A stretch of 64,000 bases of DNA. It comes from an uncultured Candidatus Saccharibacteria bacterium (GTDB lineage: Bacteria; Patescibacteriota; Dojkabacteria; GCA-002793355). Below the pieces are notes generated by a model that was not told the origin of the DNA, made no database searches, and was given only the letters and a program-made list of their open reading frames with translations. Location of the stretch: NCBI GenBank assembly GCA_964525295.1, contig CAZGEO010000001.1, forward strand, positions 150,360 through 214,359, read 5' to 3'. Shown piece after piece: positions 3 through 40,875 of the stretch (positions are counted from its first letter, which is position 1; each line of letters opens with the position of its first letter). The position numbers and the translations under genes were made by a program.

Positions 3-1562
3 GAACTCGACAATGGAGAAACCTGGAAAACACCTATCGATATAAAAAAAGTTAGTTATCAACGTTTACCTTCAGCAACAAATCTAGATGAAGAGCTTCC
101 TGTACTTGAAGTGTATGATGAATCAACAACAGACGGAGGCTACAAATTCCTTCGTATTGGTCAAGAAGATGTGTATATAACCGGCGCCTATCTCTACGAA
201 ATAGTCTACTCGATGAAAAATGTGATTCGATTTTTCGATGATAGAGAAGAGTTGTATCAAAACATAAATGGCAATCTTTCTGAGCTTGCAACTTTGAGTG
301 TTTCTGCCGAAATCTCTCCTAAACGTGAAACAACGAATTTGGCCTGTTTCACAGGAAGTGCCGGATCAACCGCTTCTGATTGCTCGATTAATGTCGAAAA
401 TTCGGGCAATGTTTTTTCACGTTCCACAAAACCATTTACAACGCACGAAGGATTAACCGTAGGTATAGCGTTTCCTAAGGGAACTTTTACCGGTCCATCA
501 GCGCTTGAAAAACTGCTTTGGCAATTACTCATTTGGCTACCTGTACTCTTTATCATTCCACTCTTTTACTACGCATTCACGACATGGAGTAAATTCGGCA
601 AAGACAAACCGATGACAGCCATACCTCCAGTATTTTTGGTACCAAAAGAATTACAAAATCAATCATTAAGTATCCTAAAGTATCTTGAGAAAATGAATAC
701 TTCTGATACGCCTTTTTTGGCAGAATTAATCAGATTAGCCGAAGCTGGCTTTCTCACCATCAATTTTGAAAACAAAAAATTCTCTTTAACTATATCACCT
801 GAACAAAAACAGAAACTTGAAGTTCATCTTGCGACCCAGCCTGATTATATTCAAAAACTTGTGATGACTTTCACAAGAAATTTGAGTGAATACACCGAGC
901 TCAATACGTTAAAATCAGTCTACGACGACATCCAACGAATCAATGATGCTGCGAAAGAAGAGTTCGAAAAATCGACACTTATCGAAAAAACTTCAGTTCG
1001 CAAACGAACAACATTAATTGTTCTCATGACATTACTCTTTATAGCAGCTGGCGTATCTTTCTTTGTTGTTATTTCACTTGAAGAAGCAGCTCTACTTACC
1101 TGGCCACTTTCACTAGGAATTTCTGGTATCATTTTTACGATTGCACAAAGTGGAATGCTTAAAAGAACTCCAGCAGGAGACACATTATTGCTTGAGTTAC
1201 TTGGGTTGCGAAAATATATTGCAACAGCAGAAGTCGAACGACTTGCTTTCTTCAATGACCCCGCAAAAATGATTGCGCATTTTGAAGAGTTGTTGCCGTA
1301 CGCAATTGTTTTTGGGCTTGAAAAGAAATGGGCTGCAGTATTCACCCCAATTTTAGAGCAAATGCAGTATGAGCCAACCTGGTACACCGGCAACGCACCT
1401 GTTTATCATGCATTAAACAGCACTTTCTATAACATGAGTTCGGTATTCGCAAGTACTGCTGCAACTCTGGCAACACCACCAAAATCGAGTAGTGGCGGAT
1501 TTAGCGGGGGTGGTGGGTTCAGTGGCGGGGGAAGTGGTGGTGGTGGTACGGGATCTTGGTAG
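3..1562 (+). CDS. DUF2207-like predicted membrane protein. It is 5'-partial, with the reading frame open to the window edge. It has an extracellular N-domain, TM helices, an LGLRKYI motif and a C-terminal Gly-rich tail (GGFSGGGGFSGGGSGGGGTGSW).
   Basis: The frame stays open upstream of the GTG at 111 all the way to nt 3. Hydrophobic segments are LIWLPVLFIIPLFYYAF and LIVLMTLLFIAAGVSFFVVISL. The glycine-rich C-terminus is typical of the DUF2207 family. The family call is from memory, not a search. Confidence 0.5.
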   Translation, partial: ELDNGETWKTPIDIKKVSYQRLPSATNLDEELPVLEVYDESTTDGGYKFLRIGQEDVYITGAYLYEIVYSMKNVIRFFDDREELYQNINGNLSELATLSVSAEISPKRETTNLACFTGSAGSTASDCSINVENSGNVFSRSTKPFTTHEGLTVGIAFPKGTFTGPSALEKLLWQLLIWLPVLFIIPLFYYAFTTWSKFGKDKPMTAIPPVFLVPKELQNQSLSILKYLEKMNTSDTPFLAELIRLAEAGFLTINFENKKFSLTISPEQKQKLEVHLATQPDYIQKLVMTFTRNLSEYTELNTLKSVYDDIQRINDAAKEEFEKSTLIEKTSVRKRTTLIVLMTLLFIAAGVSFFVVISLEEAALLTWPLSLGISGIIFTIAQSGMLKRTPAGDTLLLELLGLRKYIATAEVERLAFFNDPAKMIAHFEELLPYAIVFGLEKKWAAVFTPILEQMQYEPTWYTGNAPVYHALNSTFYNMSSVFASTAATLATPPKSSSGGFSGGGGFSGGGSGGGGTGSW

Positions 1563-1606
1563 CAATTGATAATTATCAATTATTTCCTTTTGTGTTACTA
1601 TTATAA

Positions 1607-2359
1607 ATGTACTGCCATCGTAGAGTAAAAGCTTTCACCTTATTCGAATTACTCATCGTTTTGGCGATTGTTGGTGGAGCAATGCTTTTTACCACAAATT
1701 TTACTGCACGTATCCGAGAAACCTTTGTTGCCCAACAATATGTTAAAACAATTCTTCAACAAAGTCGTACAGCACGAAGAAAATCGATGCTTATCACTAG
1801 AAATTCAAATGACACAGGGTGGGTTCACGGAATTGGTATGCAGCTCAAAAAGAATCAAAATGGCTGGCAACTCTCGTTGATTAAGGCACTCGGCAATGAA
1901 AGTCAAAATATCTTTTACCGTTCCTATCCAACAGAAGTTTCGCAACTTAGATTTGAAGAGGTTGACGCTGCTTTCCGGCAATATCTACCCGAAGGAGTAC
2001 AGCTAAGTATATCCGCACAAAACGTTACCGGCTCATTGCAAGCACGTTGCCTGCGCGACGGTACCGAATTTCTCTTGCTATTCGAATCCATTAATGGAAA
2101 ATTACACGCGTATTGCTATAGCCAAGCTACTGCAGGTAGCTACGTGGATATTACTGCCGATGAAGCAGCTTCAGGAGAAGGTTCACAAAATAAACAAATT
2201 GAAATTTCTTTAATTTACCCAAATCAAGGGAAGCATCAATCGCGTGTCTTAATATCACAAAATGGCGACATCAGCGTACAAAATGATAACATTGTCAAAG
2301 AAGAAGAACCCGTTGATGAAGAAGAAGGTGAGGAAGGAGGTGAAAATGAAGGAGAATAA
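1607..2359 (+). CDS. Type IV pilin-like protein, minor or pseudopilin 1. It has a prepilin N-terminus and an acidic Glu-rich C-terminal tail.
   Basis: N-terminus MYCHRRVKA|FTLFELLIVLAIVGG has a class III signal: F at +1, E at +5 and a hydrophobic helix. Ala is at -1 instead of Gly. C-terminus is EEEPVDEEEGEEGGENEGE. Confidence 0.7.
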   Translation: MYCHRRVKAFTLFELLIVLAIVGGAMLFTTNFTARIRETFVAQQYVKTILQQSRTARRKSMLITRNSNDTGWVHGIGMQLKKNQNGWQLSLIKALGNESQNIFYRSYPTEVSQLRFEEVDAAFRQYLPEGVQLSISAQNVTGSLQARCLRDGTEFLLLFESINGKLHAYCYSQATAGSYVDITADEAASGEGSQNKQIEISLIYPNQGKHQSRVLISQNGDISVQNDNIVKEEEPVDEEEGEEGGENEGE

Positions 2360-2954
2360 TAAAAAAATTGTACGAGCAATTGCTATGACTTTAGTGGAAG
2401 TGCTTGTTGCGCTTGCAATTATTTCATTTGTCTTCTCATCATTAACACAAATGACCTTTGACGGGCTAAAACGCACTAAAAAACTCGAGTTACAAGACAA
2501 AATGAGAAATTATGCAACTGAAGCAGTTCAAATCATTTACAACGCAAAAAACGTAAATTGGCAGGGTAGTGGTGGATTCACTAAAATGCTTCCTCCTGTT
2601 ACCGCCGGAATTATCCCACAGGTGTATGTGAACTACGATGACTTCGAAGGCACAAGACTTCTTGAACTTTCACCAGCCGATTGTAGTTACGACGCTAAGC
2701 GTAAGGTTATTGTTGGTGCTGATTGTGCCAAAGTTATCCCACCAGAAACGCTCGAAAGAAACATGATCTTTGGAAGAGTAATTCAACGACTTGATAATGA
2801 TATTATCGACACAGGCGAAGAACCGTTAAGCGATACCGTTAACGATGCGGAAATCAGCATTATTGTCGCTTGCATTGATGATATGTGTGATCCCTCTGAA
2901 TTCGCTCCATTTATTCTAAATTTTAAAGTTTTCCGTACCGGTGCAGCACAATAA
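2346..2954 (+). CDS. Type IV pilin-like protein, minor or pseudopilin 2.
   Basis: ATG at 2346 is preceded by the Shine-Dalgarno-like AGGAGGTG at 2332-2339. N-terminus MKENNKKIVRAIA|MTLVEVLVALAIISF has E at +5. The longer track ORF from 2262 lacks an RBS and overlaps the upstream gene. Confidence 0.7.
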   Translation: MKENNKKIVRAIAMTLVEVLVALAIISFVFSSLTQMTFDGLKRTKKLELQDKMRNYATEAVQIIYNAKNVNWQGSGGFTKMLPPVTAGIIPQVYVNYDDFEGTRLLELSPADCSYDAKRKVIVGADCAKVIPPETLERNMIFGRVIQRLDNDIIDTGEEPLSDTVNDAEISIIVACIDDMCDPSEFAPFILNFKVFRTGAAQ

Positions 2955-3495
2955 TAAAACGATAAAAGTCCTAGATGCCTTTACTTTGGTCGAAACACTC
3001 ATTGCGATGTCGCTCATCGCGGTATTATTTGTTCTCATCATGCAAGCCCTTAGTTCAATGCTCTTGGGGTCATTACTTATAGAGGCAAGAACAGCGGTAA
3101 GAACAGAAGGAGAATTTGTTGGCGAATATCTCAAGCTGCGCATTAAAAATGCTGACCCAGCATCACTCGTTTGTGATGATGAATCAGATTTGAAACCTAT
3201 TACCTGGCAAACCAAAGGTTCAAGTGATACGCATACCTTCTATTTTGACGAACCTAATGATCGCTTTTGCCTTGACAACGACAGTACTCAAGCTAGCGCC
3301 TGCGATACCGTTCTAACATATAATGATGTTATTGTTCACGATGTTATAGTTAACTGTGAAAGCACCATTGATGACATTACCGGTCAACAGTTTACCACCG
3401 TTAATCTTATGTTTGACCTTGACTCGACGCAGAAATATGGAGATGGACCAGCAGTTGCAAATGTATCACGTTTCATAAACATCGCTATCAGATAA
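2941..3495 (+). CDS. Type IV pilin-like protein, minor or pseudopilin 3.
   Basis: GTG start. N-terminus ...KVLDA|FTLVETLIAMSLIAVLFVLI fits the prepilin motif with E at +5. Start overlaps the preceding gene by 14 nt, suggesting translational coupling. Confidence 0.6.
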   Translation: MQHNNKTIKVLDAFTLVETLIAMSLIAVLFVLIMQALSSMLLGSLLIEARTAVRTEGEFVGEYLKLRIKNADPASLVCDDESDLKPITWQTKGSSDTHTFYFDEPNDRFCLDNDSTQASACDTVLTYNDVIVHDVIVNCESTIDDITGQQFTTVNLMFDLDSTQKYGDGPAVANVSRFINIAIR

Positions 3496-3596
3496 ATATT
3501 CTTACGCTTTGAGTCCACGTCGTTGATATTGCTTTCACCCACGCACACACAAGCATGTGACTCTAGCTTGAGAATAGATATTCAAAAAATCTATGA

Positions 3597-4346
3597 TTAC
3601 AGTGTCAGTAATGACATAAACACCAGCGGAAGAAAGAGTGTAAGAAGTGGGATTTTCTGTCCACTTCGTAGTCGTTTTTGCATCAATAAGTAGAACATAG
3701 CCATAACTGCGACTATTGCAAGAATAATTGTCATTCTGGTGAACCCTAGAAGCCCAACAGCAACAGAAAAGGCGATTATATCAGCGCTTCCAAATAGCGC
3801 ACCAAATTCAATATTTTCATCGCGCTTAAGCAGTTTAACCAGCCCAACAGAAAGTACAATAATACCTAGAATAAGTAGAATATCGAGATAGAATATAGTG
3901 CTATTGCCCATCAAGTACCACAATAAAACAAGACTCAACTGCCCAACAACTAGCCAAGAGACGGGAACAGAAAAGCGCTTTGAATCTTCGTACATCAGTA
4001 AACTCGTACATGCAAAAGCGAACAAACCAACAGCAAAAATCAAATGATTTATTCCAAAAGCGAGGTATAAAACAAATAACACCCAAGCCCATGTTGCTGA
4101 AAAGAGTAGTTCAAATCGTAAATAATCGAGTGAAACTTTTTTACCGCAGTAGATGCACTTTTGCTTCACAAGAAAGACACCAATGAAAGGCAAAAGTGCA
4201 TACCATGGCAACTCTTGTTTACAAGCATCACACTGCGATCTGCCAGCAATAGATTTCAAAAATGAACCACGATCAACAATAAGCTGCACATACTCTGACA
4301 TAATTATACCGACAACAAGCCAGAATATGAGCAGTATTTGATCCAT
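3597..4346 (-). CDS. pilD: Type IV prepilin peptidase, A24 family (PilD/ComC-like).
   Basis: N-terminal tetra-Cys zinc motif CDACKQ...CIYCGK. Polytopic membrane protein with Asp-containing motifs (GSADIIAF). Length 249 aa. Sits next to the pilin genes. Confidence 0.85.
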   Translation of the reverse strand: MDQILLIFWLVVGIIMSEYVQLIVDRGSFLKSIAGRSQCDACKQELPWYALLPFIGVFLVKQKCIYCGKKVSLDYLRFELLFSATWAWVLFVLYLAFGINHLIFAVGLFAFACTSLLMYEDSKRFSVPVSWLVVGQLSLVLLWYLMGNSTIFYLDILLILGIIVLSVGLVKLLKRDENIEFGALFGSADIIAFSVAVGLLGFTRMTIILAIVAVMAMFYLLMQKRLRSGQKIPLLTLFLPLVFMSLLTL

Positions 4347-4352
4347 AATTCG

Positions 4353-4952
4353 TTATTGAGCTTTTTGCATTCCTGCACAAGCGATTGCTGATTGATCTGA
4401 ACCAACACAGTAACAATCTTTGTTCTTTGAAGCATCATTTCTTTCGACATTACCACCACGTGGGTTCTCGGTTACAGCACATACGGTTGCTCGCAATGCT
4501 GCACCATCAGTAGTTCGGCGAATGTAGTAATAGCGAATTTCGTTATAGTTATTCTCTTTTGAGAATGGTCCCCATGAGAATTCACCTTCAAAATATTCTG
4601 CAAGACCACCTTTACCTCGAACATTAATTAACGAAGAAGTGTCTGAGGTAAATGCTGTATTACAAGCTTTAACATTAGCCAAATCGACAGTTGTCTTTGT
4701 TGAATCAACGCCATCACCGACTGGATCACCAGCACCGAATTTACCAGAGTTATAAATACACCCTGGATATGTTTGGAAGTCAGCATAATATGCTGTTAAA
4801 GCAGTTTGAATCTGATTAACAATGTTTCTTCGCTGAGTGTCTCGACCTTGGCGTAGTGCGAATGTTAAGCCGGCGTATGCGCCAACTGACAAAAAGGCAA
4901 TAATTGCCATAACTACCATAAGCTCGACGAGGGTAAAACCTTTAACTTTCAT
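4353..4952 (-). CDS. pilA: Type IV major pilin (PilA-like).
   Basis: MKVKG|FTLVELMVVMAIIAFL is a canonical prepilin signal with G at -1, F at +1 and E at +5. Length 199 aa. C-terminal Cys pairs (CYCVG...CAG) suggest a disulfide-bonded loop. Confidence 0.8.
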   Translation of the reverse strand: MKVKGFTLVELMVVMAIIAFLSVGAYAGLTFALRQGRDTQRRNIVNQIQTALTAYYADFQTYPGCIYNSGKFGAGDPVGDGVDSTKTTVDLANVKACNTAFTSDTSSLINVRGKGGLAEYFEGEFSWGPFSKENNYNEIRYYYIRRTTDGAALRATVCAVTENPRGGNVERNDASKNKDCYCVGSDQSAIACAGMQKAQ

Positions 4953-5020
4953 TATTGAGCAGATCAGTTTATATACCAGAAAGATACCTCAATCGCATAA
5001 TTGTGTCAATGACGTTTCAA

Positions 5021-6244
5021 TTACTGAATTGATTGCGTCAACTGGAACATTGGATAGTAAATTGACGCGACAATTACTGCAACAATTCCACCCATAACGA
5101 CCAAAAGTATTGGTTCAAGTAATGATGATAATGCCGACGTTGCAGCCCTAATTTCTAGATCAAAATACCTCGCAATTTTTTGCAATACTTTATCAAGTTG
5201 ACCAGTTTCTTGCCCCACATTAACCATATATCCAACGATCGTAGGGAAATGCTGACTTTGTAGTAATGGAACTGCTATCGAAACACCACGACGAACCTGA
5301 TCACGCATATTGGCGACTTCATCTTTGAACCATAAGTTACTTAACGTTGCTTCAGTCAATTCTAACGTCTGAATAATTGGCACACCGCTACTGATAAGAA
5401 GATACAACACGCGACTAAACGTTGCTACTTGTATCTTCACCATAAGCACCCCAATAATTGGAATGCTAATGAGTAACTTGTCCCAAACACGGCGACCTTC
5501 AGGCGTCGAAATGAAATATCTACCACCAACAATTGCACCAACCACGATCAGTATAACAATATACCAGTAATTAATAAGAAATTGACTCAATCCAATGACC
5601 ATCTTTGTTATTAACGGTAGTTCAGTATTGAATGATTTGAAAGCTTCCTGCATTTGCGGAACAACTACCGTAATCAGGAAAATGACTACACCAAGCATAA
5701 CAACTGTCAAAACCGCAGGATAGGCAAGTGCAGAAACCACTTTGGAGGTTAATGCTGAACGTTGTTCATATTCACGAGCTAATTTTCTAAAAATTCTCCC
5801 TAAATTACCGCTTTGCTCACCGGCTTTAATCAAATTTATTGCAATTGAATCAAACACATCTGGATATTTTGCAAGCGCATCTGATAACGGAACACCCGAC
5901 GAGACAGTTTTCAATACTTCTTTCAAAACGCGCTGAAAGCGCGGATTTTGAGTTTGTGTACTCAATACTTCAAGAGCTCGAGTAATTGATAACCCCGCAT
6001 TAATCATAATTGAGAACTGCTTTAAGAAAATCATTTTTTCTTTAAGCGGAATTCCCCCAATATTAATCTCTTTTAATCGCTCAATCGACAAAAATCTAGA
6101 AACCTCATCAACTGAAAGTGGCGATAAATTACGCTGAAACAATTGCTGCACAACTTCTTCTTTTGTTGCTGCTTGCAATGATCCCTTAACCTTACCACCA
6201 TCTTTATTCAATGCAACGTATTCGTATAATTTTTTGTCTTCCAT
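5021..6244 (-). CDS. pilC: Type IV pilus assembly platform protein PilC (GspF family).
   Basis: 407 aa with two GspF-like repeats and three TM segments. Conserved blocks include GxPLSxAL and QxxETGxL. Lies between pilA and pilT. Confidence 0.9.
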   Translation of the reverse strand: MEDKKLYEYVALNKDGGKVKGSLQAATKEEVVQQLFQRNLSPLSVDEVSRFLSIERLKEINIGGIPLKEKMIFLKQFSIMINAGLSITRALEVLSTQTQNPRFQRVLKEVLKTVSSGVPLSDALAKYPDVFDSIAINLIKAGEQSGNLGRIFRKLAREYEQRSALTSKVVSALAYPAVLTVVMLGVVIFLITVVVPQMQEAFKSFNTELPLITKMVIGLSQFLINYWYIVILIVVGAIVGGRYFISTPEGRRVWDKLLISIPIIGVLMVKIQVATFSRVLYLLISSGVPIIQTLELTEATLSNLWFKDEVANMRDQVRRGVSIAVPLLQSQHFPTIVGYMVNVGQETGQLDKVLQKIARYFDLEIRAATSALSSLLEPILLVVMGGIVAVIVASIYYPMFQLTQSIQ

Positions 6245-7785
6245 TACACCAATTCCTCAAGTAATCTGGCCATTTCAGTCGCATCTAGGGCATAACGCAA
6301 AGCGTCTTCTTGCTGAATTAACCCTTCTTTGTATAGCCCAAGTAATGATCGTTCAAGTGTAATCATGCCGAGATCTAGACTCGTTCTGATGATATTATCG
6401 ATTTGATAAATCTTGTTTTCTCGAATTAAATTCCTAATTGCTGGAGTCATTAACATGATTTCTAAGGCAGCACGTCTACCACCGCCTTTTACAGGAATTA
6501 ATCGTTGCGCAACAACGGCTTCTAGAACATCTGCCAATTCAGAACGAATCTCATCTTGCTGAACATCTGGGTACATATTTACAATTCTTTGTATTGTCTG
6601 AGCAGCGCTATTTGTGTGTAAAGTTGCAAATACCAAGTGACCAGTTTCAGCGACAGTAATCGCCGAAGAAATTGTTTCAAGATCACGCATTTCTCCGACC
6701 AAAACTACATCTGGATCTTCACGAAGTGCAGAACGAAGTGCACCTTTCCAGGAGTGAGTGTCATCACCGAGTTCTCGCTGTGAAACAAGTGCCTTTTGTT
6801 GAGGAAAGACATATTCTACTGGATCTTCAATAGTCAGAATATGTTTTGGATGTTTCATGTTAATTTCTTGAATTACTGCAGCCAAAGAAGTTGACTTACC
6901 ATGGCCTGTTGGACCAGTAACAAGAACCAATCCTTGTTCAAGATCAGTAAATTTATGAAACAAATCTGGAAGTTTCAATTCATCAATTGTTCTAATTCTC
7001 GTAGGAATTAAACGGAAAGCTGCAGACAAATAACCACGCTGCCAGTATGCATTAATACGAAATCGACCAGCATCTTTATGTTGATATGCTAAATCTACCT
7101 CGCGATTTACTTCAAGTTGCTCCTTTTTGTCATCTGGCAAAACTGAATAAATCAATTCTTTTGCTATTTGTGGCGTAATAATTACTGAACCAACAGTAAC
7201 TAAAGATCCATCGATACGAACCATTGGCAAATAGCCAACGACTAAATGGAGATCAGAGGCATCTTGCGCAATAACCAAATCTAATAATTGCTTAATTTCA
7301 TATGGACCACTTACCGAAATATTTCCTACAGCTGGTTCTTGTGGCTGCGCTGGCGAAATTGGCGTAGCAACAACAGGCGAACCTAAATCTGGCTGTGGGG
7401 CCACGGGTTGCGTAACCTCAGGAAAGGTAACTGCTGGCGTTACTACCGCAGGTGTTGACGATACAGGAACATCACTCGAAGAAACTGGAGGCTGAGTTAC
7501 TGTAGGTTGACTTGCAACAGCATTCTCTGTAACCGTCTCGGTTACCTGTGTTGATTGCACAACATTTACTGGTTGTTCTGATACAGTCGGAATCGGCGCT
7601 GCTGGTGATTGCCCAGTCATTTGTTTAAGCATTGCAAGTGGATCTAAAAAACCTGGTTTTGCGACATCTTGTGCTGACGCATTCATAGGCGTAGATGAAA
7701 CCGGTGGCAAACCAGAACTTGTTTGCGGTAACGGAGGTAATTGAGTGTTTGGCGGTTGTATCGGAGTTCCTGTGTTTAAATCCAT
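6244..7785 (-). CDS. pilT: PilT-type twitching-motility/retraction ATPase with an N-terminal low-complexity extension of about 170 aa.
   Basis: Core matches PilT: ASDLHL, Walker A GPTGHGKST, DPVEY, an Asp box, and HLVFATLHTNSAAQTIQRIV. The N-terminal ~170 aa are rich in Pro/Thr/Ser/Val/Gln with no in-frame stop. Confidence 0.85.
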   Translation of the reverse strand: MDLNTGTPIQPPNTQLPPLPQTSSGLPPVSSTPMNASAQDVAKPGFLDPLAMLKQMTGQSPAAPIPTVSEQPVNVVQSTQVTETVTENAVASQPTVTQPPVSSSDVPVSSTPAVVTPAVTFPEVTQPVAPQPDLGSPVVATPISPAQPQEPAVGNISVSGPYEIKQLLDLVIAQDASDLHLVVGYLPMVRIDGSLVTVGSVIITPQIAKELIYSVLPDDKKEQLEVNREVDLAYQHKDAGRFRINAYWQRGYLSAAFRLIPTRIRTIDELKLPDLFHKFTDLEQGLVLVTGPTGHGKSTSLAAVIQEINMKHPKHILTIEDPVEYVFPQQKALVSQRELGDDTHSWKGALRSALREDPDVVLVGEMRDLETISSAITVAETGHLVFATLHTNSAAQTIQRIVNMYPDVQQDEIRSELADVLEAVVAQRLIPVKGGGRRAALEIMLMTPAIRNLIRENKIYQIDNIIRTSLDLGMITLERSLLGLYKEGLIQQEDALRYALDATEMARLLEELV

Positions 7786-7796
7786 AGTTATTAAAA

Positions 7797-9656
7797 TTAC
7801 GTTAATTCACTATCGCTCTTTGCGACACGAGCGACTTCTTCTATTGTTGTAATACCTTCAATTGCTTTAAGATAACCATCTTGCACGATAGTAATCATAC
7901 CTTCTTCTTCGGCTAATTTTTCGAGTGCATCATATTCTGCATTGCGCATTATGCCAGAAGCCATTTTATCGTTGATCATCGCGACTTCAAAGATTGCCAT
8001 ACGACCGCGATATCCTGTTCCACCACACTTTGAACAACCCGTTCCATGATACAAATATATCTGCTGCTGACCATCTGCTGTTAAGTCGGGAGCTTTAACT
8101 GGTGGAGCAAATTTATATTCTGGTTGATCTGGCGACAATACTGGTCGTTTCGCTAAAGTTTCTAAATAGCGTGTTACATCAAAGTTTGCAATGCCACCAA
8201 GAACTTTCGTAACATCATCAACTAATTCTTTTGGTGCAGGTTCAGCAACTCGACAATGTGGACAGATAGTTCGCACCAATCGTTGAGCTACGACACACTT
8301 AACAGTAGAGGCAACCAAGAATGGCTCAATTCCCATGTCAATTAAACGCACAATAGATGAAACCGCACCATTTGTGTGCAATGTTGAAAGAACCAAGTGC
8401 CCCGTAAGTGCAGCTCGAATTGCAAGACGAGCTGTTTCTTCATCACGTACTTCTCCTAGGTACACAATATTCGGATCTTGACGTAGAACTGCGCGCAGTA
8501 CTGTAGCAAAATCGAGGCCAATATCATGATTAACTTGAACTTGAGTAATACCAGGAATTCTAATTTCAACAGGATCTTCAATAGAGATTACGTTGACCTT
8601 TGGATCGTTCAATCTGTTTACAGTACTTGCCAATGTTCTCGTTTTACCACTACCTGTTGGACCGGTAACTAAAACAATTCCGTTAGTAACGCTAATACTC
8701 TCAACATATCGTTTATATGCAGAACCACGCAGGCCAGATTCTTCAAGCGGAGGAATTCCTGTAGTTCTTTCGAGCAAACGCATAACAAGCTTTTCACCGT
8801 ACAACGAAGGTAGAGTAGAGATACGTAAGTCAAACTTTCTTTCGGCGACCTTAATGAAAAGACGACCGTCTTGTGGCATTCTAGTTTCGTCGATTTTCAA
8901 ATTCGACATAATCTTCATTCTTGCAACGACTGGTGGCTGAAGTTCTTTCGGTAATGTCAATTTTTCAGTCATAACACCATCGATACGATAGCGTACGCGA
9001 ACTGATTTTTCTTGAGGTTCAACGTGAATATCTGAAGCACCTGCTTGTGCACCATAAACGAGAATAGAATTAACTATTTTAGCAACAGGTGCACCTTGTA
9101 GATTTTGTGAAACATCAGCAACATCTTCGGTCGAAATCTCAGTTTCCTGAACGCCGGTTTCTTGTTGATACGATGTAACTGCAGCTTGAACATCACCACT
9201 AATCAGATTGCCAAATCTAGTTGAAATATACGTTTGTACTTCTTGCGGAGAAGCCGTGTAAATCTCAACCTGTCGAGGTAAATATTTAACTTTCCAAAAT
9301 TGAATCGCATTCAAGTTGAATGGGTCAGCCATTACAACTTTAACTTTCGTATCGTTTACTTCAAAAGGAAACGCCTGCTGTTCTTTAAGAACATCTACGC
9401 TAACGCCATTTAGTAGTTCAGGGGCTGCCTGAATTGGAGATAAATCATCAATAAATTGAACGTTGTAAACGGCTGCCTTTGTCTTAAAAAGATCTTTTTC
9501 ATTGACTAACTTCTTTTCAAGAATTATCTGCAGTTCAGTCTTATTTTGCTGCGCACATTCGAGTTTAATTTGATCAGCAGTTTGTGCGGTAAGCAAGCCT
9601 CTTTCAACTAAAGCAGTAAGTAGGCGTGTATCAACACCAGTATAGGGCAATGGCAT
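7797..9656 (-). CDS. pilB: Type IV pilus assembly ATPase PilB (GspE family).
   Basis: 619 aa. Walker A is GPTGSGKT. GspE signature blocks present. Tetra-Cys zinc motif CPHCR...CSKCGGTG near the C-terminus. Confidence 0.9.
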   Translation of the reverse strand: MPLPYTGVDTRLLTALVERGLLTAQTADQIKLECAQQNKTELQIILEKKLVNEKDLFKTKAAVYNVQFIDDLSPIQAAPELLNGVSVDVLKEQQAFPFEVNDTKVKVVMADPFNLNAIQFWKVKYLPRQVEIYTASPQEVQTYISTRFGNLISGDVQAAVTSYQQETGVQETEISTEDVADVSQNLQGAPVAKIVNSILVYGAQAGASDIHVEPQEKSVRVRYRIDGVMTEKLTLPKELQPPVVARMKIMSNLKIDETRMPQDGRLFIKVAERKFDLRISTLPSLYGEKLVMRLLERTTGIPPLEESGLRGSAYKRYVESISVTNGIVLVTGPTGSGKTRTLASTVNRLNDPKVNVISIEDPVEIRIPGITQVQVNHDIGLDFATVLRAVLRQDPNIVYLGEVRDEETARLAIRAALTGHLVLSTLHTNGAVSSIVRLIDMGIEPFLVASTVKCVVAQRLVRTICPHCRVAEPAPKELVDDVTKVLGGIANFDVTRYLETLAKRPVLSPDQPEYKFAPPVKAPDLTADGQQQIYLYHGTGCSKCGGTGYRGRMAIFEVAMINDKMASGIMRNAEYDALEKLAEEEGMITIVQDGYLKAIEGITTIEEVARVAKSDSELT

Positions 9657-9714
9657 GTGTCAGTATAGCAAGTTGGGGGGAGCTTGGCAATGAGAACTTT
9701 GGTTCAACTCGATC

Positions 9715-10053
9715 ATGCTAATCATACGAAATTGTCGAAGTTATAAAATTATGCTAGTGTCTTTTATGACTTTAGAAAGCTCGAATTGGATTGTATGTCC
9801 ACAATTTAGTGAAAGATGGTTTATAACATGTGGCCCCGTTGCTTTAATAAAAATTGTACCTGTATTGACTACAATTGTACTAATCGCTGCAATTCCTTAT
9901 GTCATAACGCATGCCATCATATTGGCCAGAAAAAAACTATCTATCGGTAACATAATTTACAAACTAACAGCAGACGTAATTTTGATCTGCTGCCTTCTAT
10001 TTCTCTTTGCTACGCTTCAAATAATAATAGTTCGATTTGGTGTCATTAATTAA
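9715..10053 (+). CDS. Hypothetical small hydrophobic protein of 112 aa in the AT-rich divergent intergenic region. Could be spurious.
   Basis: The only ORF in the 493-bp gap between the pilB and valS starts. Two predicted TM helices. No RBS identified. Confidence 0.2.
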   Translation: MLIIRNCRSYKIMLVSFMTLESSNWIVCPQFSERWFITCGPVALIKIVPVLTTIVLIAAIPYVITHAIILARKKLSIGNIIYKLTADVILICCLLFLFATLQIIIVRFGVIN

Positions 10054-10149
10054 TATATAAGCATGGCTACGTAAACCAAGATTTACGCAATCTAATAAAT
10101 CGAGCGTCAGCTTATTTCAGTATTTTAGCAATTAATTGTATAATTCCCC

Positions 10150-31363: not shown

Positions 31364-32236
31364 CTACAATAACTGATGCGCTCGCACAATTGCTCGCGCT
31401 GTATCAATATCATCAAATTCTGGCGGCTCGCGACGTAAACTTTGCGCTAGCATAGAGATAGTTTCAGTGTATTCACGCATAAATTCCTGCTTCCCCATTT
31501 CATAAAGAACATAATCAAGGTGATTAAGTTTTCGTAATTCTGTAATTGTTTCCTCATCAAAATCCGTTATTTGAGGCCTACCCGAAAAAGTCATTTCTCG
31601 TTTGTTATCAACACGTGGAGTTAACCCAGTCTTAAACGCAAGCAGTAAACACGATTGTTCAAAGTATTCTTGAATGCCGACAAAATCTAATGTTTTGAGG
31701 TGCTTTACGGCATTCCCTAAAAGTTCTGATTCTGGCATTTTTCCCGCATGCTTACTCAAAATGTGATGAATTGCCGAAGAAGATTCCAATTCTTCAGAAG
31801 TTGTATTCTGTAAGATATCAATATCGATACCAACAAATCGAGCTTGCGCGTTCCAATAATGGGTTCTAACACTCTCAACTTGAAGCATCTTTTTCAAATC
31901 ACCATTTTCTATTGACTTATACTCTCTGTTGGCGACTGTATGAACCAAATATGGGTCGACGAGAGCATGGTGATGTTGCGAGATAACCCTCTCAACTGGG
32001 TCGCGAAGAAAGGTTAATGTAAAAGCATCTTGTGGCAAAAATCTGCGCAGACTATACCCGAAATGTCCACGATAAAATCGATACTTATTCCAGGGCATGG
32101 GAGAATGTTTAACAATATCATACCAAAAATGACCGGGAAAAATTTCTTCTTCGGTAAAGAATTTTGAAAAGTAACCAGTAAAGGAAGTTCCCGCAGTTTT
32201 GGGAATGTGTAAGAAATAGTACGTGCGGTCTTTCAT
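31364..32236 (-). CDS. Sulfotransferase-family protein.
   Basis: 5'-PSB-like motif FLHIPKTAGTSF (PKTGGTS). 3'-PB-like FLRDPVERVISQ. Length 290 aa. Confidence 0.6.
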   Translation of the reverse strand: MKDRTYYFLHIPKTAGTSFTGYFSKFFTEEEIFPGHFWYDIVKHSPMPWNKYRFYRGHFGYSLRRFLPQDAFTLTFLRDPVERVISQHHHALVDPYLVHTVANREYKSIENGDLKKMLQVESVRTHYWNAQARFVGIDIDILQNTTSEELESSSAIHHILSKHAGKMPESELLGNAVKHLKTLDFVGIQEYFEQSCLLLAFKTGLTPRVDNKREMTFSGRPQITDFDEETITELRKLNHLDYVLYEMGKQEFMREYTETISMLAQSLRREPPEFDDIDTARAIVRAHQLL

Positions 32237-32377
32237 TGCGACATTGTACGAACTGAAATGACGTTGGTCAAATTCGCGGATTTACTTTCACCCACGTCTT
32301 CACTAACATGGTACTCTCGCTCAAAAAATTAACATCCCTGGCATTACGCTTTGCAATGAATACCTGCGAATAATTGA

Positions 32378-33361
32378 GTGACGGTAACATTACTTACTGT
32401 ATTTATGTATAATAAGGTAATGAGAAATCCTTTAACAATAATCAAAGAAAAAATTCAGAAATTAGATTCAATTGAGAAAAAGGTCGATAAACTTCTCGCA
32501 AATAGATCCGAGAACAGAAGAGGTCCAGAACAACCTGCAGAGATACTCCAACAAGAATTACAAAAAAAACAAAAACTTTTGAAATCTTCACTCTGCAAAG
32601 AACTCGATTTTCACCAACCATGGTATGCAAAATGGTGCGCTGAAATTAATCAGAAACCTGCATTCCATCGTAAACAATGGGAATTCGCATATATTTTGCA
32701 GGCTTTACATGAACGAGGCATGCTTCAAGAAGGGAAAAAAGGATTAGGTTTTGCTGTTGGCTCCGAACAATTGCCAGCATTATTTGCGAAATACAAAATG
32801 ACCATTTTAGCGACAGATTTAGATCCAGAGCAAGGTGCAGAAAAAGGTTGGACCACCGGAGATCAACTCTGTTACGGGGTTGAGTCATTTGCCAAACATG
32901 GCATTGCGTCACTCGAGACATTGCAAAAATACGTAACCTACCGTGCTGTTGATATGAATAACATTCCTGATGATCTAAAAGATTTTGATTTCACCTGGTC
33001 AGCCTGTGCATTCGAGCACCTTGGTTCAATCGAAAATGGCTTAAAATTTGTTGAGAATCAGATGAAAACATTGAAACCTGGTGGCTATGCAATTCATTCC
33101 TCCGAATACAACATCAGTTCAAATGACGATACCGTTGAAAATGAAAATCTCGTTTTGTTTAGACAACGTGATTATCAAGAACTTGCAGAAAGACTACGTA
33201 AACAAGGTCACTTTGTAGAAGAATTAGATTTTTCTCTTGGTTGGTTACCAACAGATTATTTTGTTGATGTGCCCCCATATTTGCAAGACAAACATCTTAG
33301 GTTACAGATCGATCGATTCGTAACTAGCTCATTTTGCTTAATTATTCGAAAGAAACTGTAG
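32378..33361 (+). CDS. Putative SAM-dependent methyltransferase with an N-terminal coiled-coil. May modify a glycan.
   Basis: N-terminal heptad-like KEKIQKLDSIEKKVDKLL...QQELQKKQKLLK. Then a motif-I-like KGLGFAVGSE and acidic ILATDLD. The family call is tentative. Confidence 0.4.
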   Translation: MTVTLLTVFMYNKVMRNPLTIIKEKIQKLDSIEKKVDKLLANRSENRRGPEQPAEILQQELQKKQKLLKSSLCKELDFHQPWYAKWCAEINQKPAFHRKQWEFAYILQALHERGMLQEGKKGLGFAVGSEQLPALFAKYKMTILATDLDPEQGAEKGWTTGDQLCYGVESFAKHGIASLETLQKYVTYRAVDMNNIPDDLKDFDFTWSACAFEHLGSIENGLKFVENQMKTLKPGGYAIHSSEYNISSNDDTVENENLVLFRQRDYQELAERLRKQGHFVEELDFSLGWLPTDYFVDVPPYLQDKHLRLQIDRFVTSSFCLIIRKKL

Positions 33362-33368
33362 TACAATA

Positions 33369-34139
33369 GTGAATATGACCAGTAACTATTTCGACTTGCT
33401 AAGAGAATTTTTCGTTACTGATTTCAAATTACGTTATAAACACTCATATTTGGGATTCTTGTGGGTTGTCATGAAACCACTTTCACAGTACGCAATTCTT
33501 TACATCATTTGGACCTCATTGTTCGGAAGAACTGCTGACTTTGCGTCATATCTTTTAATCGGAATTTTATCTCTTTCTTATTTTTCAGAAGGAGTTGTTT
33601 TTGGTATGCAGGCACTTCAAAACAAGGCGCATATTATATTAAAAGTTCGTTTCCCTCGAGAAGTGGTGGTTTTAAGTTCAGTTATGATCGCAACCGTTAA
33701 TTATCTCATCAATTTAGGAATTTACTTTCTATTCAGGATCGTGTCACAACAACCACTTTTCGCCGGTAATTGGCTATTATTTGTGCTCGGATTCATTCTT
33801 CTTACGCTTTTCTTGTTTGGGCTTGCCTTCTTTACTAGCATAATCAGCGTTAAATATCACGATATCCGTCATTTAATCGAGTTGTTATTACAACTCATGT
33901 TCTGGGCTACGCCAATTTTTTATAGTTTGTCGCAACTTCCTAAAAAACTAGCAGCCATTTTAAGCAATTTTAATCCATTAGTTTCAATATTAACCCTGCT
34001 TCGAGGAGGCTTGTTGGCTGACGCAGATCCGGTAAATTGGCAAACAATTGCATTTATGACCTTGTTTATCCTTTTTATCACAATTACTGGCTATTGGTCG
34101 TTCAAGAAACGTTTACCTAAAATCGCAGAATTCTTTTAA
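33369..34139 (+). CDS. ABC-2 type polysaccharide/teichoic-acid exporter permease (Wzm/TagG-like).
   Basis: 256 aa with six TM helices. N-terminal FVTDFKLRYKHSYLGFLWVVMKP is typical of Wzm/KpsM/TagG. Directly followed by the ATPase gene. Confidence 0.8.
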   Translation: MNMTSNYFDLLREFFVTDFKLRYKHSYLGFLWVVMKPLSQYAILYIIWTSLFGRTADFASYLLIGILSLSYFSEGVVFGMQALQNKAHIILKVRFPREVVVLSSVMIATVNYLINLGIYFLFRIVSQQPLFAGNWLLFVLGFILLTLFLFGLAFFTSIISVKYHDIRHLIELLLQLMFWATPIFYSLSQLPKKLAAILSNFNPLVSILTLLRGGLLADADPVNWQTIAFMTLFILFITITGYWSFKKRLPKIAEFF

Positions 34140-34140
34140 C

Positions 34141-34881
34141 ATGGACGCAATAACAGTAAACTCGCTGACGAAATCATTCACAATTCCTCATGAGCGAAAA
34201 AACTCACTCGTAGAAATGCTGACCAAATCATTTCAAAAAGTTCCCGTCGATAAACTTGAAGTACTTAAAAACATTTCATTTACCGTTAAAAAGGGTGAAA
34301 CATTAGGAATAATTGGCACGAATGGAGCAGGTAAATCAACTTTACTAAAACTCATCGCAGGTATTTACACACCAGATGCTGGGACCATAGCTCTTGGAGG
34401 TAAATTGGTACCATTTCTTGAACTTGGTGTAGGATTCAACCCAGAACTAACTGGAAGAGAAAACGTGTTTTTAAACGGCATTATTCTTGGAATGTCGCGT
34501 TCTTTTCTAAAACAGAAATTCGACGAGATTGTTTCATTTTCTGAGCTTGAGAGATTCATCGATTTACCACTGAAAAACTATTCTTCTGGTATGCAAGTTC
34601 GACTCGCGTTTTCAATAGCATTCATGGCAGAAGCAGATATTTATTTACTTGATGAAGTTTTTTCTGTTGGAGATATGGCATTTCAAGAGAAGAGCAAAAC
34701 AATTTTTAAGCATCTTAAAGAAGAAGGTAAAACACTTGTATTAGTTTCACATTCACTCCCAACGATGAGTGAAAATGCCGATCGTTTGTTGCTTTTACAC
34801 CAAGGTAAGGTGCAACTATTTGATTCAGTTGCCGCTGGAATCGAAAAATACGAACAACTGGTTAAACAAAACAGCAATTAA
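34141..34881 (+). CDS. ABC transporter ATP-binding protein (Wzt/TagH-like), with no extra C-terminal domain.
   Basis: Walker A GTNGAGKST. ABC signature LSSGMQVRLAFSIA. Walker B YLLDEVFSVGD. H-loop VSHS. Start is 2 nt after the permease stop. Confidence 0.85.
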   Translation: MDAITVNSLTKSFTIPHERKNSLVEMLTKSFQKVPVDKLEVLKNISFTVKKGETLGIIGTNGAGKSTLLKLIAGIYTPDAGTIALGGKLVPFLELGVGFNPELTGRENVFLNGIILGMSRSFLKQKFDEIVSFSELERFIDLPLKNYSSGMQVRLAFSIAFMAEADIYLLDEVFSVGDMAFQEKSKTIFKHLKEEGKTLVLVSHSLPTMSENADRLLLLHQGKVQLFDSVAAGIEKYEQLVKQNSN

Positions 34882-34888
34882 CAAAGAC

Positions 34889-36208
34889 TTACAATTTCGC
34901 AAGACCTGCTTTTATCTTTTCATACATAACTTGTTCTGTGTATTTCTTCGACTGCTCAGTACCTTTGCGGATAAGGTCAACGCGCAATTGAGGATCTTTC
35001 AAAATCTTCAATAATTTTTGTGAAATTTCACCAACAGAGTAGGGGTTATCAATTTTTAGAACGGCCTCTCCGGCTACTTCTGCCAAAGCTCCACGTACAC
35101 TCGAAACAGCAGGGCACCCCAATGCAAAAGCTTCTAAGACAGGTAAGCCAAATCCTTCATATAGTGTCGGATTTACTAATGCAATCGCATGTTTTAGCAA
35201 AGTATATTTATCGTGCTCATTCGCATACCCCGTAAAGATAATTCTTTTCTGAATATGTTTTGGAGCTTTCTCTACCTCTTTGAAAATATCCTTAAATGCA
35301 TAAGTTTTATTACCAATGATAACTAGATTTGCGGTTGTCTTGTCGGCAATTGCAATAAATGCCTGAATTAATCGGTGTACATTTTTGCGTCTTTCAACAG
35401 AAGATATAAAAATAATAAATTCTTTACCTACAAGATCATTTTGAATGAGTACCGGGGAATCTGTTTCATAGAGTGGACGTTCATAATCAAATGCTGAAAT
35501 TGCAGCACCAATATTGTGAAGAAAGGTTGTTGGTTCAACTTCTTTGATTTTTGCTTCAGAGTCATCTGAAATTGTAAAAACTAAGTCAGAATTCCTTGTG
35601 ACATAATCAATTTGCTTCGCAAGTTTTGTCAACCAATTATTTTCGGGTGATTCTTCTGCAATTTCGAATGGAATCAAATCGTAAATAATCTGAATAGTTT
35701 TAACACCTTTAAGTTTCGGTACAACGACAGGAAAACTAAAGAAGACCGCATCAGGCTTAACTGTTTTGATAATTTTTTGTAAAGCGAATTTTCTAACAAT
35801 CTTTGGCAAAATTCCGATAAGGCGATAAAAATACGGCAAGTTAACTGCTGCATCAAAAAATGGCAGCAATGGAATACCAACAGATTTATCTTTATCAATT
35901 TTGGTTACAGGCGATTTTTGAAAGAAAAAGGCTTTCAAAAATCGCAACACTACGCGCCAGTTAGATTGCTTTGGGTCAACTTTGCGCGTCAATTCACCAC
36001 CGTTAACTAAATATTGGCGAATGTAAGTATTGTGAACTCTTTCAGCCATGCGTTCTGAGCCAACAGTTAGAGAAATTTTTGGATAACTTGTGAGAAGAAC
36101 AACTTCGTGCCCTTGATCGGCAAATGCTCTAACGACATGTTTCGTTACAAATTGCACACCACGATAGTTCAAATCTTCAAGTTCCGGCGCTACTACGAGT
36201 ATCTTCAT
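34889..36208 (-). CDS. Glycosyltransferase family 1 (GT4-type, retaining).
   Basis: C-terminal EGFGLPVLEAFALGCPAVSS carries the E-x7-E/GT1 signature. N-terminal KILVVAPE with Gly-rich loop. Length 439 aa. Confidence 0.85.
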   Translation of the reverse strand: MKILVVAPELEDLNYRGVQFVTKHVVRAFADQGHEVVLLTSYPKISLTVGSERMAERVHNTYIRQYLVNGGELTRKVDPKQSNWRVVLRFLKAFFFQKSPVTKIDKDKSVGIPLLPFFDAAVNLPYFYRLIGILPKIVRKFALQKIIKTVKPDAVFFSFPVVVPKLKGVKTIQIIYDLIPFEIAEESPENNWLTKLAKQIDYVTRNSDLVFTISDDSEAKIKEVEPTTFLHNIGAAISAFDYERPLYETDSPVLIQNDLVGKEFIIFISSVERRKNVHRLIQAFIAIADKTTANLVIIGNKTYAFKDIFKEVEKAPKHIQKRIIFTGYANEHDKYTLLKHAIALVNPTLYEGFGLPVLEAFALGCPAVSSVRGALAEVAGEAVLKIDNPYSVGEISQKLLKILKDPQLRVDLIRKGTEQSKKYTEQVMYEKIKAGLAKL

Positions 36209-38896: not shown

Positions 38897-39389
38897 CACC
38901 AAACATAAAAAATTTAAATGCACCCTCAGCCCCAGCACAAGAAAAAAAAGAGCCTGTACTCAGCCAATCCAGGTTTTCAGCGACATTGTCATACAAAGAG
39001 AAGAAAGTAAGTATTTTAAACAATTGCAAGATTCGCCCGAATTAGCCGGGAATATATTACTTTCTCTCGTTATCGATAAATTTCGCCCGCTCAATAACTT
39101 CTACCTCTATTTTCTACCTGAGAACCAAATCGGACCAATCGAATCACCGATTTATAATTCCGCATTAGTGCAAGATATTCGCAGAGTTGCAAAACAAGAA
39201 TTGCAAAAGCTGCAAAAAATTCCAAATCTAAGAGAAAGGTTTACTCAATTTAACGATCTAAAACTTACTAGTATTACTGCAGAAGACAACATTTTTGCTG
39301 GTTTATACATGCAAGCATTTCTCAAAACATTAGCAATAAAGAATGATGATGGCAGTTACAAGTATACTTTCAGAGAATTGCGTGCTTAA
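38893..39389 (+). pseudogene. Paralog B of the tandem pair, interrupted by a frameshift at an A8 homopolymer (38942-38949). Candidate phase-variable gene, or a homopolymer sequencing error.
   Basis: ATG 38893 (MTPNIKNLNAPSAPAQEKK) is in frame +1 relative to the downstream ORF 39024-39389. The downstream frame is open back to 38889 and encodes ..IQVFSDIVIQREESKYFKQLQDSPELAGNILL, homologous to paralog A. The frames switch at the A8 tract. Confidence 0.5.
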
Positions 39390-40819: not shown

Positions 40820-40875
40820 GCCTGCATTATCGCATACTTTGAAATGCAAACAAAGATTGACAATTTTCACCAAGA

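What the first reader, a model, noticed from the sequence alone, without database searches (positions are those of the whole stretch)
1607..9656. Complete type IV pilus module: three pseudopilins convergent with pilD-pilA-pilC-pilT-pilB
Three consecutive genes encode proteins with class-III prepilin N-termini (xFTLxE, hydrophobic helix). They face an oppositely oriented operon: prepilin peptidase (tetra-Cys zinc motif), a canonical major pilin, PilC, PilT and PilB. All three pseudopilins have Ala at position -1 of the cleavage site. The major pilin has the canonical Gly. This may reflect different processing efficiency or a distinct peptidase preference. The first pseudopilin ends in a poly-Glu tail, which is unusual for pilins. 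A DUF2207-like membrane protein with a poly-Gly tail sits just upstream. In small-genome, CPR-like bacteria such a machine is usually tied to DNA uptake or host attachment.
Basis: partly seen in the sequence, partly recalled or inferred. Interest (0 to 1): 0.5.

Follow-up and report, generated by a model that had tools for sequence, protein, structure and literature searches.

The report
Type IV pilus genes, Dojkabacteria

Summary
- "Complete" is overstated. No PilM, PilN or PilO gene lies in the 64 kb window or the 7 kb upstream, and no GspK-like fourth minor pilin was found.
- The Ala versus Gly contrast at position -1 is not systematic. Both residues alternate among orthologues of at least three of the four pilin families, including the major pilin.
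- The poly-Glu tail is confined to a small subclade, and DUF2207 belongs to a LemA-DUF2207 pair that two relatives lack.
Verdict: a new member of a known kind, of low interest.

The parts
1607..2359 (+). pp1: minor pilin, 250 aa. The class III signal is VKA|FTLFE. Weakly GspH/ComGD-like. Acidic C-terminal tail encoded at 2303-2356.
   Evidence: N_methyl 20.9 bits and TIGR02532 19.7 bits (above the 16.3 cut-off). Sub-threshold ComGD hits in 9 of 11 family members and GspH hits in 6 of 11. The globular domain has only 24 representatives in 1.84 billion proteins, and none hits Pfam GspH. The tail is present only in close relatives.
2346..2954 (+). pp2: minor pilin, 202 aa, RAIA|MTLVE. The +1 residue is an invariant Met. 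GspI/PilV-like fold with insertions. Overlaps the end of pp1 by 14 nt.
2941..3495 (+). pp3: minor pilin, 184 aa, LDA|FTLVE. GspJ/PilW-class fold. Overlaps the end of pp2 by 14 nt.
3597..4346 (-). pilD: prepilin peptidase/methyltransferase-type protein, 249 aa, with a divergent peptidase domain.
   Evidence: A24_N_bact 53.4 bits. No Peptidase_A24 hit for this copy, but 4 of 8 orthologues hit PF01478 (best 2e-4). Invariant across the 8 orthologues: C39/C42/C64/C67, D121 (in MYEDxK in the 6 closest relatives) and D189 (FGxAD).
4353..4952 (-). pilA: major pilin, 199 aa, MKVKG|FTLVE.
   Evidence: N_methyl 36.1 bits. The alpha-1 helix matches solved T4a pilins (geopilin 2.5e-5, PilE 3.5e-3). Promoter-like TTGACA-17-TATCTT at 5009-4981, a consensus match only.
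5021..6244 (-). pilC: platform protein, 407 aa.
   Evidence: T2SSF x2, 201.8 bits. GspF and PilC models score 365 and 320 bits, below their equivalog cut-offs.
6244..7785 (-). pilT: retraction ATPase, 513 aa. The core is residues about 164-509. It is preceded by an N-terminal extension of about 150-160 aa rich in Pro, Val, Thr, Ser and Gln (7306-7785).
   Evidence: TIGR01420 446.6 bits against a cut-off of 319.1. Aquifex PilT 2ewv E 3.7e-99 over residues 164-509. The extension is present in every orthologue examined.
7797..9656 (-). pilB: extension ATPase, 619 aa, MshEN N-domain plus T2SSE.
   Evidence: T2SSE 392 bits and MshEN 42 bits. Best solved matches are Geobacter PilB at E about 1e-109 over residues 14-480, then Thermus PilF, then GspE. 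Promoter-like TTGCCA-17-TG-TATACT at 9690-9662.
3..1562 (+). DUF2207 membrane protein, 3' part; the ORF runs off the window. It is a neighbour, probably co-transcribed with pp1-pp3, but it is not shown to be part of the pilus machine.
   Evidence: DUF2207_C 87.2 bits and DUF2207 31.2 bits. The frame is open at the window edge. It is 615 aa and preceded by LemA in the same genome. It is absent in L006 and L008.

Best explanation
The region encodes the core of a retractile, monoderm-style type IVa-like pilus of a Candidatus Dojkabacteria (WS6, Patescibacteria/CPR) bacterium.

Inferred mechanism, by homology with characterised T4aP systems:
1. PilD removes the short basic leader after Gly or Ala, and probably N-methylates the new N-terminus, on four prepilins.
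2. pp1, pp2 and pp3 are a GspH/ComGD-like (weak), a GspI/PilV-like and a GspJ/PilW-like minor pilin, in the same H-I-J gene order as gspHIJ and fimU-pilVW. They form the priming complex that ends up at the pilus tip.
3. PilB, docked on the PilC platform, polymerises the major pilin beneath them.
4. PilT depolymerises the fibre to retract it.

Shown here: gene identities, conserved synteny, pilin signal motifs and the predicted folds of pp2 and pp3. Inferred: assembly order, tip location and biological role. The role is host or surface attachment, twitching or DNA uptake, as in Saccharibacteria.

The Gly/Ala choice at -1, the acidic tail of pp1 and the DUF2207 neighbour are lineage-level variation with no demonstrated role.
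For: - Domain hits for all five machinery genes.
- PilT is above its curated cut-off and matches solved PilT structures at 1e-95 to 1e-99. PilB best matches solved T4aP PilB over its full length.
- Four class III signal motifs, and only four at ORF N-termini in 64 kb.
- The arrangement valS | pilB-T-C-A-D converging on pp3-pp2-pp1 recurs in 6 related genome loci at 66-77% PilC identity. It recurs again in a more distant relative with pp3 at 37% identity.
- pp1 family: recurrent sub-threshold ComGD and GspH hits.
- PilD orthologues keep four Cys and two Asp invariant, and half of them hit Peptidase_A24.
- The literature shows T4P with PilB/T/C/M/N/O/D and no secretin to be widespread in CPR (PMC6744442). 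In Saccharibacteria they mediate host binding and twitching (PMC11623550).
Against: - No PilM, PilN or PilO was found in the window or 7 kb upstream, so the machine as seen here is incomplete, or these genes lie elsewhere.
- No fourth GspK/PilX/ComGG-like minor pilin lacking Glu5 was found.
- The class of pp1 is weak. It rests only on similarity in the N-terminal helix region, pp1 was not modelled, and none of the 14 family members scanned hits Pfam GspH.
- The window's own PilD does not hit Peptidase_A24, and its second active-site motif reads GxAD rather than GxGD.
- Nothing here shows expression, processing or piliation.
Confidence: 0.85

Rival explanations
1. It is a dedicated competence (DNA-uptake) pseudopilus of the ComG kind. 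The three minor pilins would correspond to ComGD, ComGE and ComGF, and the fibre's main job would be to pull DNA to a ComEC channel.
For: The best sub-threshold NCBIfam hits of pp1, pp2 and pp3 include ComGD, ComGE and ComGE/ComGF. All three keep Glu5, as ComGD, ComGE and ComGF do (PMC8727766). Ala at -1 occurs in monoderm pilins (PMC3244431). CPR bacteria are thought to scavenge DNA, and their genomes are enriched in ComEC (PMC6744442).
Against: - ComG operons have no PilT, and here PilT is clearly present.
- PilB is a 619-aa MshEN-containing PilB-type ATPase that best matches T4aP PilB, not the short ComGA.
- All ComG model scores are far below their cut-offs.
- There is no ComGG-like fourth pilin.
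- No ComEA, ComEC or DprA gene lies in the 64 kb window.
- DNA uptake as one function of a T4aP is not excluded. Membership of the ComG family is.
Confidence: 0.1
2. It is a type II secretion system. The major 'pilin' would be a GspG pseudopilin and pp1-pp3 would be GspH, GspI and GspJ.
For: - PilC scores highest against the GspF model (365 bits), and PilB scores about equally against GspE and PilB models (523 vs 517 bits).
- The pp2 and pp3 folds match GspI and GspJ crystal structures.
- One source annotates pp2 homologues as 'PulG'.
Against: - All Gsp equivalog scores are below their curated cut-offs.
- No GspC, GspD, GspK, GspL or GspM was detected.
- A PilT retraction ATPase is present, and T2SS do not have one.
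- CPR bacteria lack an outer membrane and a secretin (PMC6744442).
- GspH/I/J-like core minor pilins are shared with T4aP (PMC11623550, citing the core minor-pilin concept).
Confidence: 0.03
3. The minor-pilin operon works with the upstream LemA(-DUF2207) membrane proteins. These would replace the missing PilMNO alignment proteins, giving a reduced, lineage-specific pilus machine.
For: - LemA, with or without DUF2207, lies on the same strand in all 7 genomes where the flank is visible, 4-44 nt from pp1.
- No PilMNO lies near the cluster.
Against: - CPR genomes are tightly packed, so adjacency alone is weak evidence.
- LemA-DUF2207 pairs occur in unrelated bacteria in other genomic contexts (PMC12631010).
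- DUF2207 is dispensable, being absent in L006 and L008.
- PilMNO may simply be encoded elsewhere in the roughly 0.7-1 Mb genome, which could not be searched here.
Confidence: 0.07

Closest known systems
Type IV pilus loci of Saccharibacteria (Nanosynbacter lyticus TM7x T4P locus 1) and other CPR bacteria (PMC11623550/PMC12206443; PMC6744442)
   Same: - A monoderm-style T4aP-like set: PilB, PilT, PilC, PilD, a small major pilin and several divergent minor pilins with pseudopilin-like folds.
- No secretin.
- The pilin globular domains are lineage-specific in sequence.
   Different: - TM7x locus 1 also encodes PilM, PilN and PilO and five pilins, including a large PilX-type tip protein.
- Here there is no PilMNO nearby, only three minor pilins, and none carries a large accessory domain.
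- PilT carries an N-terminal low-complexity extension of about 150 aa.
Core minor (pseudo)pilins GspH-GspI-GspJ-GspK of T2SS, FimU-PilV-PilW-PilX of T4aP, and Thermus PilA2/PilA3 (TTHA1218/TTHA1219)
   Same: - The gene order (H-like)-(I-like)-(J-like) is the same.
- All have class III signals with Glu5.
   Different: - There is no K-class (GspK/PilX/ComZ/ComGG) member.
- Sequence identity is 7-14% only.
- pp2 is about twice the size of GspI.
- pp1 could not be assigned by fold.
- None passes a curated family cut-off.
ComG competence pseudopilus of Bacillota (ComGA-GG, ComC)
   Same: - A monoderm envelope with no secretin and no PilMNO in the operon.
- Three Glu5-bearing minor pilins.
- Ala is tolerated at -1.
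   Different: - PilT is present.
- The ATPase is a long PilB-type enzyme with an MshEN domain.
- There is no ComGG.
- The genes are split into two convergent units.

Membership tests
Type IVa pilus system (T4aP) | PilB-type extension ATPase (T2SSE with an N-terminal MshEN/GSPII domain) | tested here: met
   PF00437 392 bits and PF05157 42 bits. Best PDB matches are Geobacter and Myxococcus PilB and Thermus PilF. TIGR02538 scores 517 bits, below its equivalog cut-off of 675.
Type IVa pilus system (T4aP) | PilT/PilU retraction ATPase | tested here: met
   TIGR01420 446.6 bits against a cut-off of 319.1. PDB PilT 2ewv at 3.7e-99.
Type IVa pilus system (T4aP) | PilC platform protein with two T2SSF domains | tested here: met
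   PF00482 201.8 bits in two stretches.
Type IVa pilus system (T4aP) | Prepilin peptidase with two catalytic Asp residues (Peptidase_A24) and an N-terminal Cys-rich domain | tested here: inconclusive
   A24_N_bact is met at 53.4 bits. Peptidase_A24 is not detected in this copy but is detected in 4 of 8 orthologues (best 2e-4). Two Asp residues and four Cys residues are invariant. The second motif is GxAD.
Type IVa pilus system (T4aP) | Major pilin with a short leader, G/A|F-T-L-x-E and a hydrophobic alpha-1 helix | tested here: met
   MKVKG|FTLVELMVVMAIIAFL. N_methyl 36.1 bits. The alpha-1 helix matches T4a pilins in the PDB.
Type IVa pilus system (T4aP) | PilM/PilN/PilO alignment subcomplex | tested here: not met
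   No PilM_2, PilN or PilO hit in any ORF of at least 110 aa in the 64 kb window (no-hit ORFs rescanned at E up to 0.5). None in the 7 kb upstream or around the distant relative. The rest of the genome could not be searched.
Type IVa pilus system (T4aP) | Set of core minor pilins (H, I, J, K classes) | tested here: inconclusive
   [not shown]
Type II secretion system | Secretin GspD plus GspC, GspL and GspM, and no retraction ATPase | tested here: not met
   None of these was detected in the window. PilT is present.
ComG competence pseudopilus | A short ComGA ATPase, ComGB, ComGC-GG in one operon, and no PilT | tested here: not met
   ComGA, ComGB and ComGC-GF model scores are all below their cut-offs (243 vs 300 for ComGA, 137 vs 240 for ComGB, and at most 27 bits vs 49-80 for the pilin models). 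PilT is present. There is no ComGG-like gene.
Prepilin-type N-terminal cleavage/methylation domain proteins (TIGR02532 / PF07963) | The N-terminal motif scores at or above the curated cut-off | tested here: inconclusive
   TIGR02532 (cut-off 16.3): pp1 19.7, pp2 16.3, pp3 16.2, PilA 32.0. PF07963 (cut-off 21.2): pp1 20.9, pp2 20.1, pp3 16.7, PilA 36.1. The motif, Glu5 and the hydrophobic helix are conserved in every orthologue whose called N-terminus includes them.

The most novel reading that the evidence does not exclude
Dojkabacteria may run a stripped-down retractile type IV pilus. It would have no PilM/N/O alignment complex and no K-class tip cap. The three-member H-I-J minor-pilin set would be co-transcribed with, and functionally coupled to, the LemA(-DUF2207) membrane module, and PilT would carry a lineage-specific disordered N-terminal arm. 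If so, this would be the smallest known retractile T4P gene set, with a new accessory module.
Probability: 0.08. Interest if true: 0.55.

Novelty: new member of a known kind. Interest (0 to 1): 0.2.

Why it matters
Type IV pili are thought to be central to how ultrasmall CPR bacteria attach to hosts, move and take up DNA, and this has been shown experimentally only for Saccharibacteria. This locus adds a well-conserved Dojkabacteria example with a compact gene set and a simple three-member minor-pilin operon. That is useful for comparative work but does not change what is known. The check also removes three tempting over-readings: a special Ala -1 processing class, a family-wide poly-Glu tail, and a DUF2207 link to the pilus.

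Tried and rejected
- Profile searches of the three minor-pilin families against PDB sequences matched at most the N-terminal helix (pp1 clearly, pp3 marginally, pp2 nothing pilin-like), so they say nothing about the class of the globular domains.
- Foldseek of the pp2 model against the PDB gave no significant match.
- The afdb50 library was unavailable.
- An exhaustive HMMER search with the pp1 globular domain found only 24 representatives. None of the 14 family members scanned hit Pfam GspH, so pp1 could not be tied to the H class by transitive homology.
- The window's PilD has no match among PDB sequences or in NCBIfam.
- Promoter and terminator scans gave counts no higher than shuffled sequence. 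The sites upstream of pilB and pilA are only consensus matches.
- I looked for a Dojkabacteria entry in the supplement of the Saccharibacteria T4P paper to learn whether PilM is present in this lineage, and found none.
- I considered that ORF 9715-10053 ('SFMTLESS') might be a cryptic pilin. I rejected this because no hydrophobic helix follows the motif and the ORF is absent from relatives.
- I considered that the DUF2207 gene is truncated. I rejected this because the ORF simply runs off the window.
Full report
**What is in the sequence.**
- Plus strand, three short overlapping genes:
  - pp1 is 1607-2359, 250 aa.
  - pp2 is an ORF from 2262, but its most plausible start is the ATG at 2346, 5 nt after a GGAGGTG Shine-Dalgarno sequence. 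That gives 202 aa.
  - pp3 is 2941-3495, 184 aa.
- Minus strand, converging on them: pilB (9656-7797), pilT (7785-6244), pilC (6244-5021), a major pilin (4952-4353) and pilD (4346-3597).
- A six-frame scan for the class III signal motif finds it at the N-terminus of an ORF only in these four pilin genes in the whole 64 kb.

**Family searches.**
- PilB: T2SSE 392 bits plus MshEN.
- PilT: TIGR01420 446.6 bits against a cut-off of 319.1.
- PilC: two T2SSF stretches.
- PilD: A24_N_bact 53.4 bits.
- Major pilin: N_methyl 36.1 bits.
- The three small pilins fall just below the Pfam N_methyl cut-off (20.9, 20.1 and 16.7 against 21.2). pp1 passes the TIGR02532 cut-off of 16.3 (19.7), pp2 equals it (16.3) and pp3 is just under (16.2).
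- The upstream protein is DUF2207 with a Gly-rich tail. Its ORF runs off the window and is 615 aa in the same genome.

**Whose genome it is, and is the layout conserved.**
- A genome-collection scan with PilC returned six loci at 66-77% identity. They are named Candidatus Dojkabacteria, Patescibacteria group bacterium, and in one case (mis)labelled Saccharibacteria.
- tblastn of the window proteins shows the same order in all of them. It runs valS | pilB-pilT-pilC-pilA-pilD, converging on pp3-pp2-pp1, then DUF2207 (absent in L006).
- Upstream in relatives, and in a second assembly of the same genome, lie LemA and a ClpB-like AAA+ protein.
- A more distant relative (pp3 37% identical) keeps the arrangement. 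It has two tandem major pilin genes and no DUF2207, so LemA is followed directly by pp1.

**What kind of machine.**
- The PilT core (residues 164-509) matches solved PilT structures at 1e-95 to 1e-99.
- PilB matches solved T4aP PilB over residues 14-480 slightly better than it matches GspE.
- Type II secretion and ComG systems have no PilT. No secretin, GspC/L/M or ComGG-like gene is present, and all Gsp and ComG equivalog scores are below their cut-offs.
- This fits what is already published. Type IV pili without a secretin are widespread and enriched in CPR bacteria (PMC6744442). In Saccharibacteria they drive host binding and twitching (PMC11623550, PMC12206443).

**The three minor pilins.**
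- Their globular domains have no sequence match in the PDB, and the families are small. The word-indexed search found 11, 6 and 18 homologues, and the named ones are Dojkabacteria.
- An exhaustive profile search with the pp1 globular domain found only 24 representatives among 1.84 billion proteins.
- pp1: it was not modelled. Its family gives recurrent sub-threshold hits to ComGD (9 of 11 members) and GspH (6 of 11). These lie in the N-terminal helix region, and none of the 14 family members scanned hits Pfam GspH. The H-class label is weak and leans on gene order.
- All three keep Glu5, and no K-class pilin lacking Glu5 was found.
- The likely role, by analogy with GspHIJK, FimU-PilVWX and ComGDEF, is a priming complex that ends up at the tip. 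This is inferred, not shown.

1. "Complete" is overstated.
   - Every ORF of at least 110 aa in the window was scanned against Pfam, and the ORFs with no hit were rescanned at E up to 0.5.
   - None of them is PilM, PilN or PilO. None lies in the 7 kb upstream or around the distant relative.
   - Other CPR loci do carry these genes.
   - Whether they sit elsewhere in this genome could not be tested.
2. The Ala/Gly contrast at -1 is not systematic.
   - The major pilin has Ala in L001-L005. It has Gly in the window, in L006 and in both L008 copies.
   - pp2 orthologues split A10/G6.
   - pp3 is mostly Ala, but Gly in L001 and in P0011, the L008 copy.
   - pp1 is Ala or Gly depending on the genome.
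   - Cleavage after Gly or Ala is the textbook range for prepilin peptidases (PMC3244431). A single PilD evidently accepts both.
3. The poly-Glu tail occurs only in the window, in an 89%-identical relative and, in longer form, in a 59%-identical one. Other orthologues end at ...NGEINAxxx. The tail codons also contain the ribosome-binding site of pp2.
4. DUF2207 is the partner of LemA. That pairing is seen in unrelated bacteria (PMC12631010), and DUF2207 is absent from two relatives.

**PilD.**
- The window copy hits only the N-terminal A24 domain.
- Four of eight orthologues reach Peptidase_A24 (best 2e-4).
- The alignment keeps four Cys and two Asp residues invariant. The Asp sit in MYEDxK (most relatives) and FGxAD, a GxGD-like motif with Ala.
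- The enzyme is therefore probably active but divergent.

**Verdict.** This is a real, conserved, ordinary type IV pilus core locus of a Dojkabacteria bacterium, and so a new member of a known kind. The residual open points are:
- the missing PilMNO and K-class pilin;
- the tight linkage to LemA;
- the low-complexity N-terminal extension on PilT, about 150 aa here and 117-204 aa in every orthologue examined.

Together they leave a small chance (about 8%) of a reduced, lineage-specific variant.

Noticed in passing
window 7306-7785 (-), N-terminus of PilT; also L001, L004, L005, L006: PilT carries an N-terminal extension of about 150 aa rich in Pro, Val, Thr, Ser and Gln (117-204 aa in the relatives). 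Its first ~25 residues are conserved (MDLNTGTPIQ...). Solved PilT proteins begin where residue ~164 aligns. This is unusual for a retraction ATPase, and its function is unknown.
   Followed up: partly
L007 3492-10555; L001 10632-17112; L008 4365-9414: A ClpB-like AAA+ protein, LemA, (DUF2207) and the three minor pilin genes are packed on one strand, with gaps of 4-44 nt between the last upstream gene and pp1, in every genome where this flank is visible. DUF2207 is missing in L006 and L008, where pp1 starts 4-10 nt after the LemA stop codon. Co-transcription is likely, but any functional link is unknown.
   Followed up: partly
window 1563-1582: A near-perfect (19/20) palindrome, CAATTGATAATTATCAATTa, lies directly after the DUF2207 stop codon and 25 nt before the pp1 start. 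It is not present in the relatives, whose gap is only 4-20 nt. It could be an operator or a weak hairpin.
   Followed up: no
window 9657-10149 (ORF 9715-10053 +): The pilB-valS spacer is about 490 nt here against about 100 nt in relatives. It holds a hydrophobic 100-112 aa ORF with no family hit. L008 has an NYN-domain gene at this position instead.
   Followed up: no
window 2303-2359: The codons of the acidic tail of pp1 (GAA/GAG/GGA runs) contain the GGAGGTG ribosome-binding site of pp2. The tail may partly be a by-product of the stop codon having moved into this purine-rich stretch.
   Followed up: partly
window 2346-2954 and homologues P0018-P0035: pp2 has an invariant Met at +1 after the predicted cleavage site (MTLVE), and Leu in L008, instead of the usual Phe. 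Some gene callers start the protein at this Met.
   Followed up: partly
L008 10171-11519: The distant relative carries two tandem paralogous major pilin genes between pilC and pilD.
   Followed up: no
window 50481-53399 (+): A single 972-aa gene fuses the glycyl-tRNA synthetase alpha and beta subunits (glyQ-glyS).
   Followed up: no
window 31364-36208, 39386-40906, 48289-49845: Cell-envelope glycopolymer genes lie here: a sulfotransferase, an ABC-2 transporter pair, a GT4 glycosyltransferase, a LytR-CpsA-Psr ligase and a Wzy_C/O-antigen-ligase-like protein. The last family includes pilin O-glycosylases, but no link to the pilins was tested.
   Followed up: no
window 42355-44232, 57692-58960, 62172-63995: Three large ORFs (625, 422 and 607 aa) have no Pfam hit even at E up to 0.5. 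GC content rises to 0.43 in the last 2 kb of the window.
   Followed up: no
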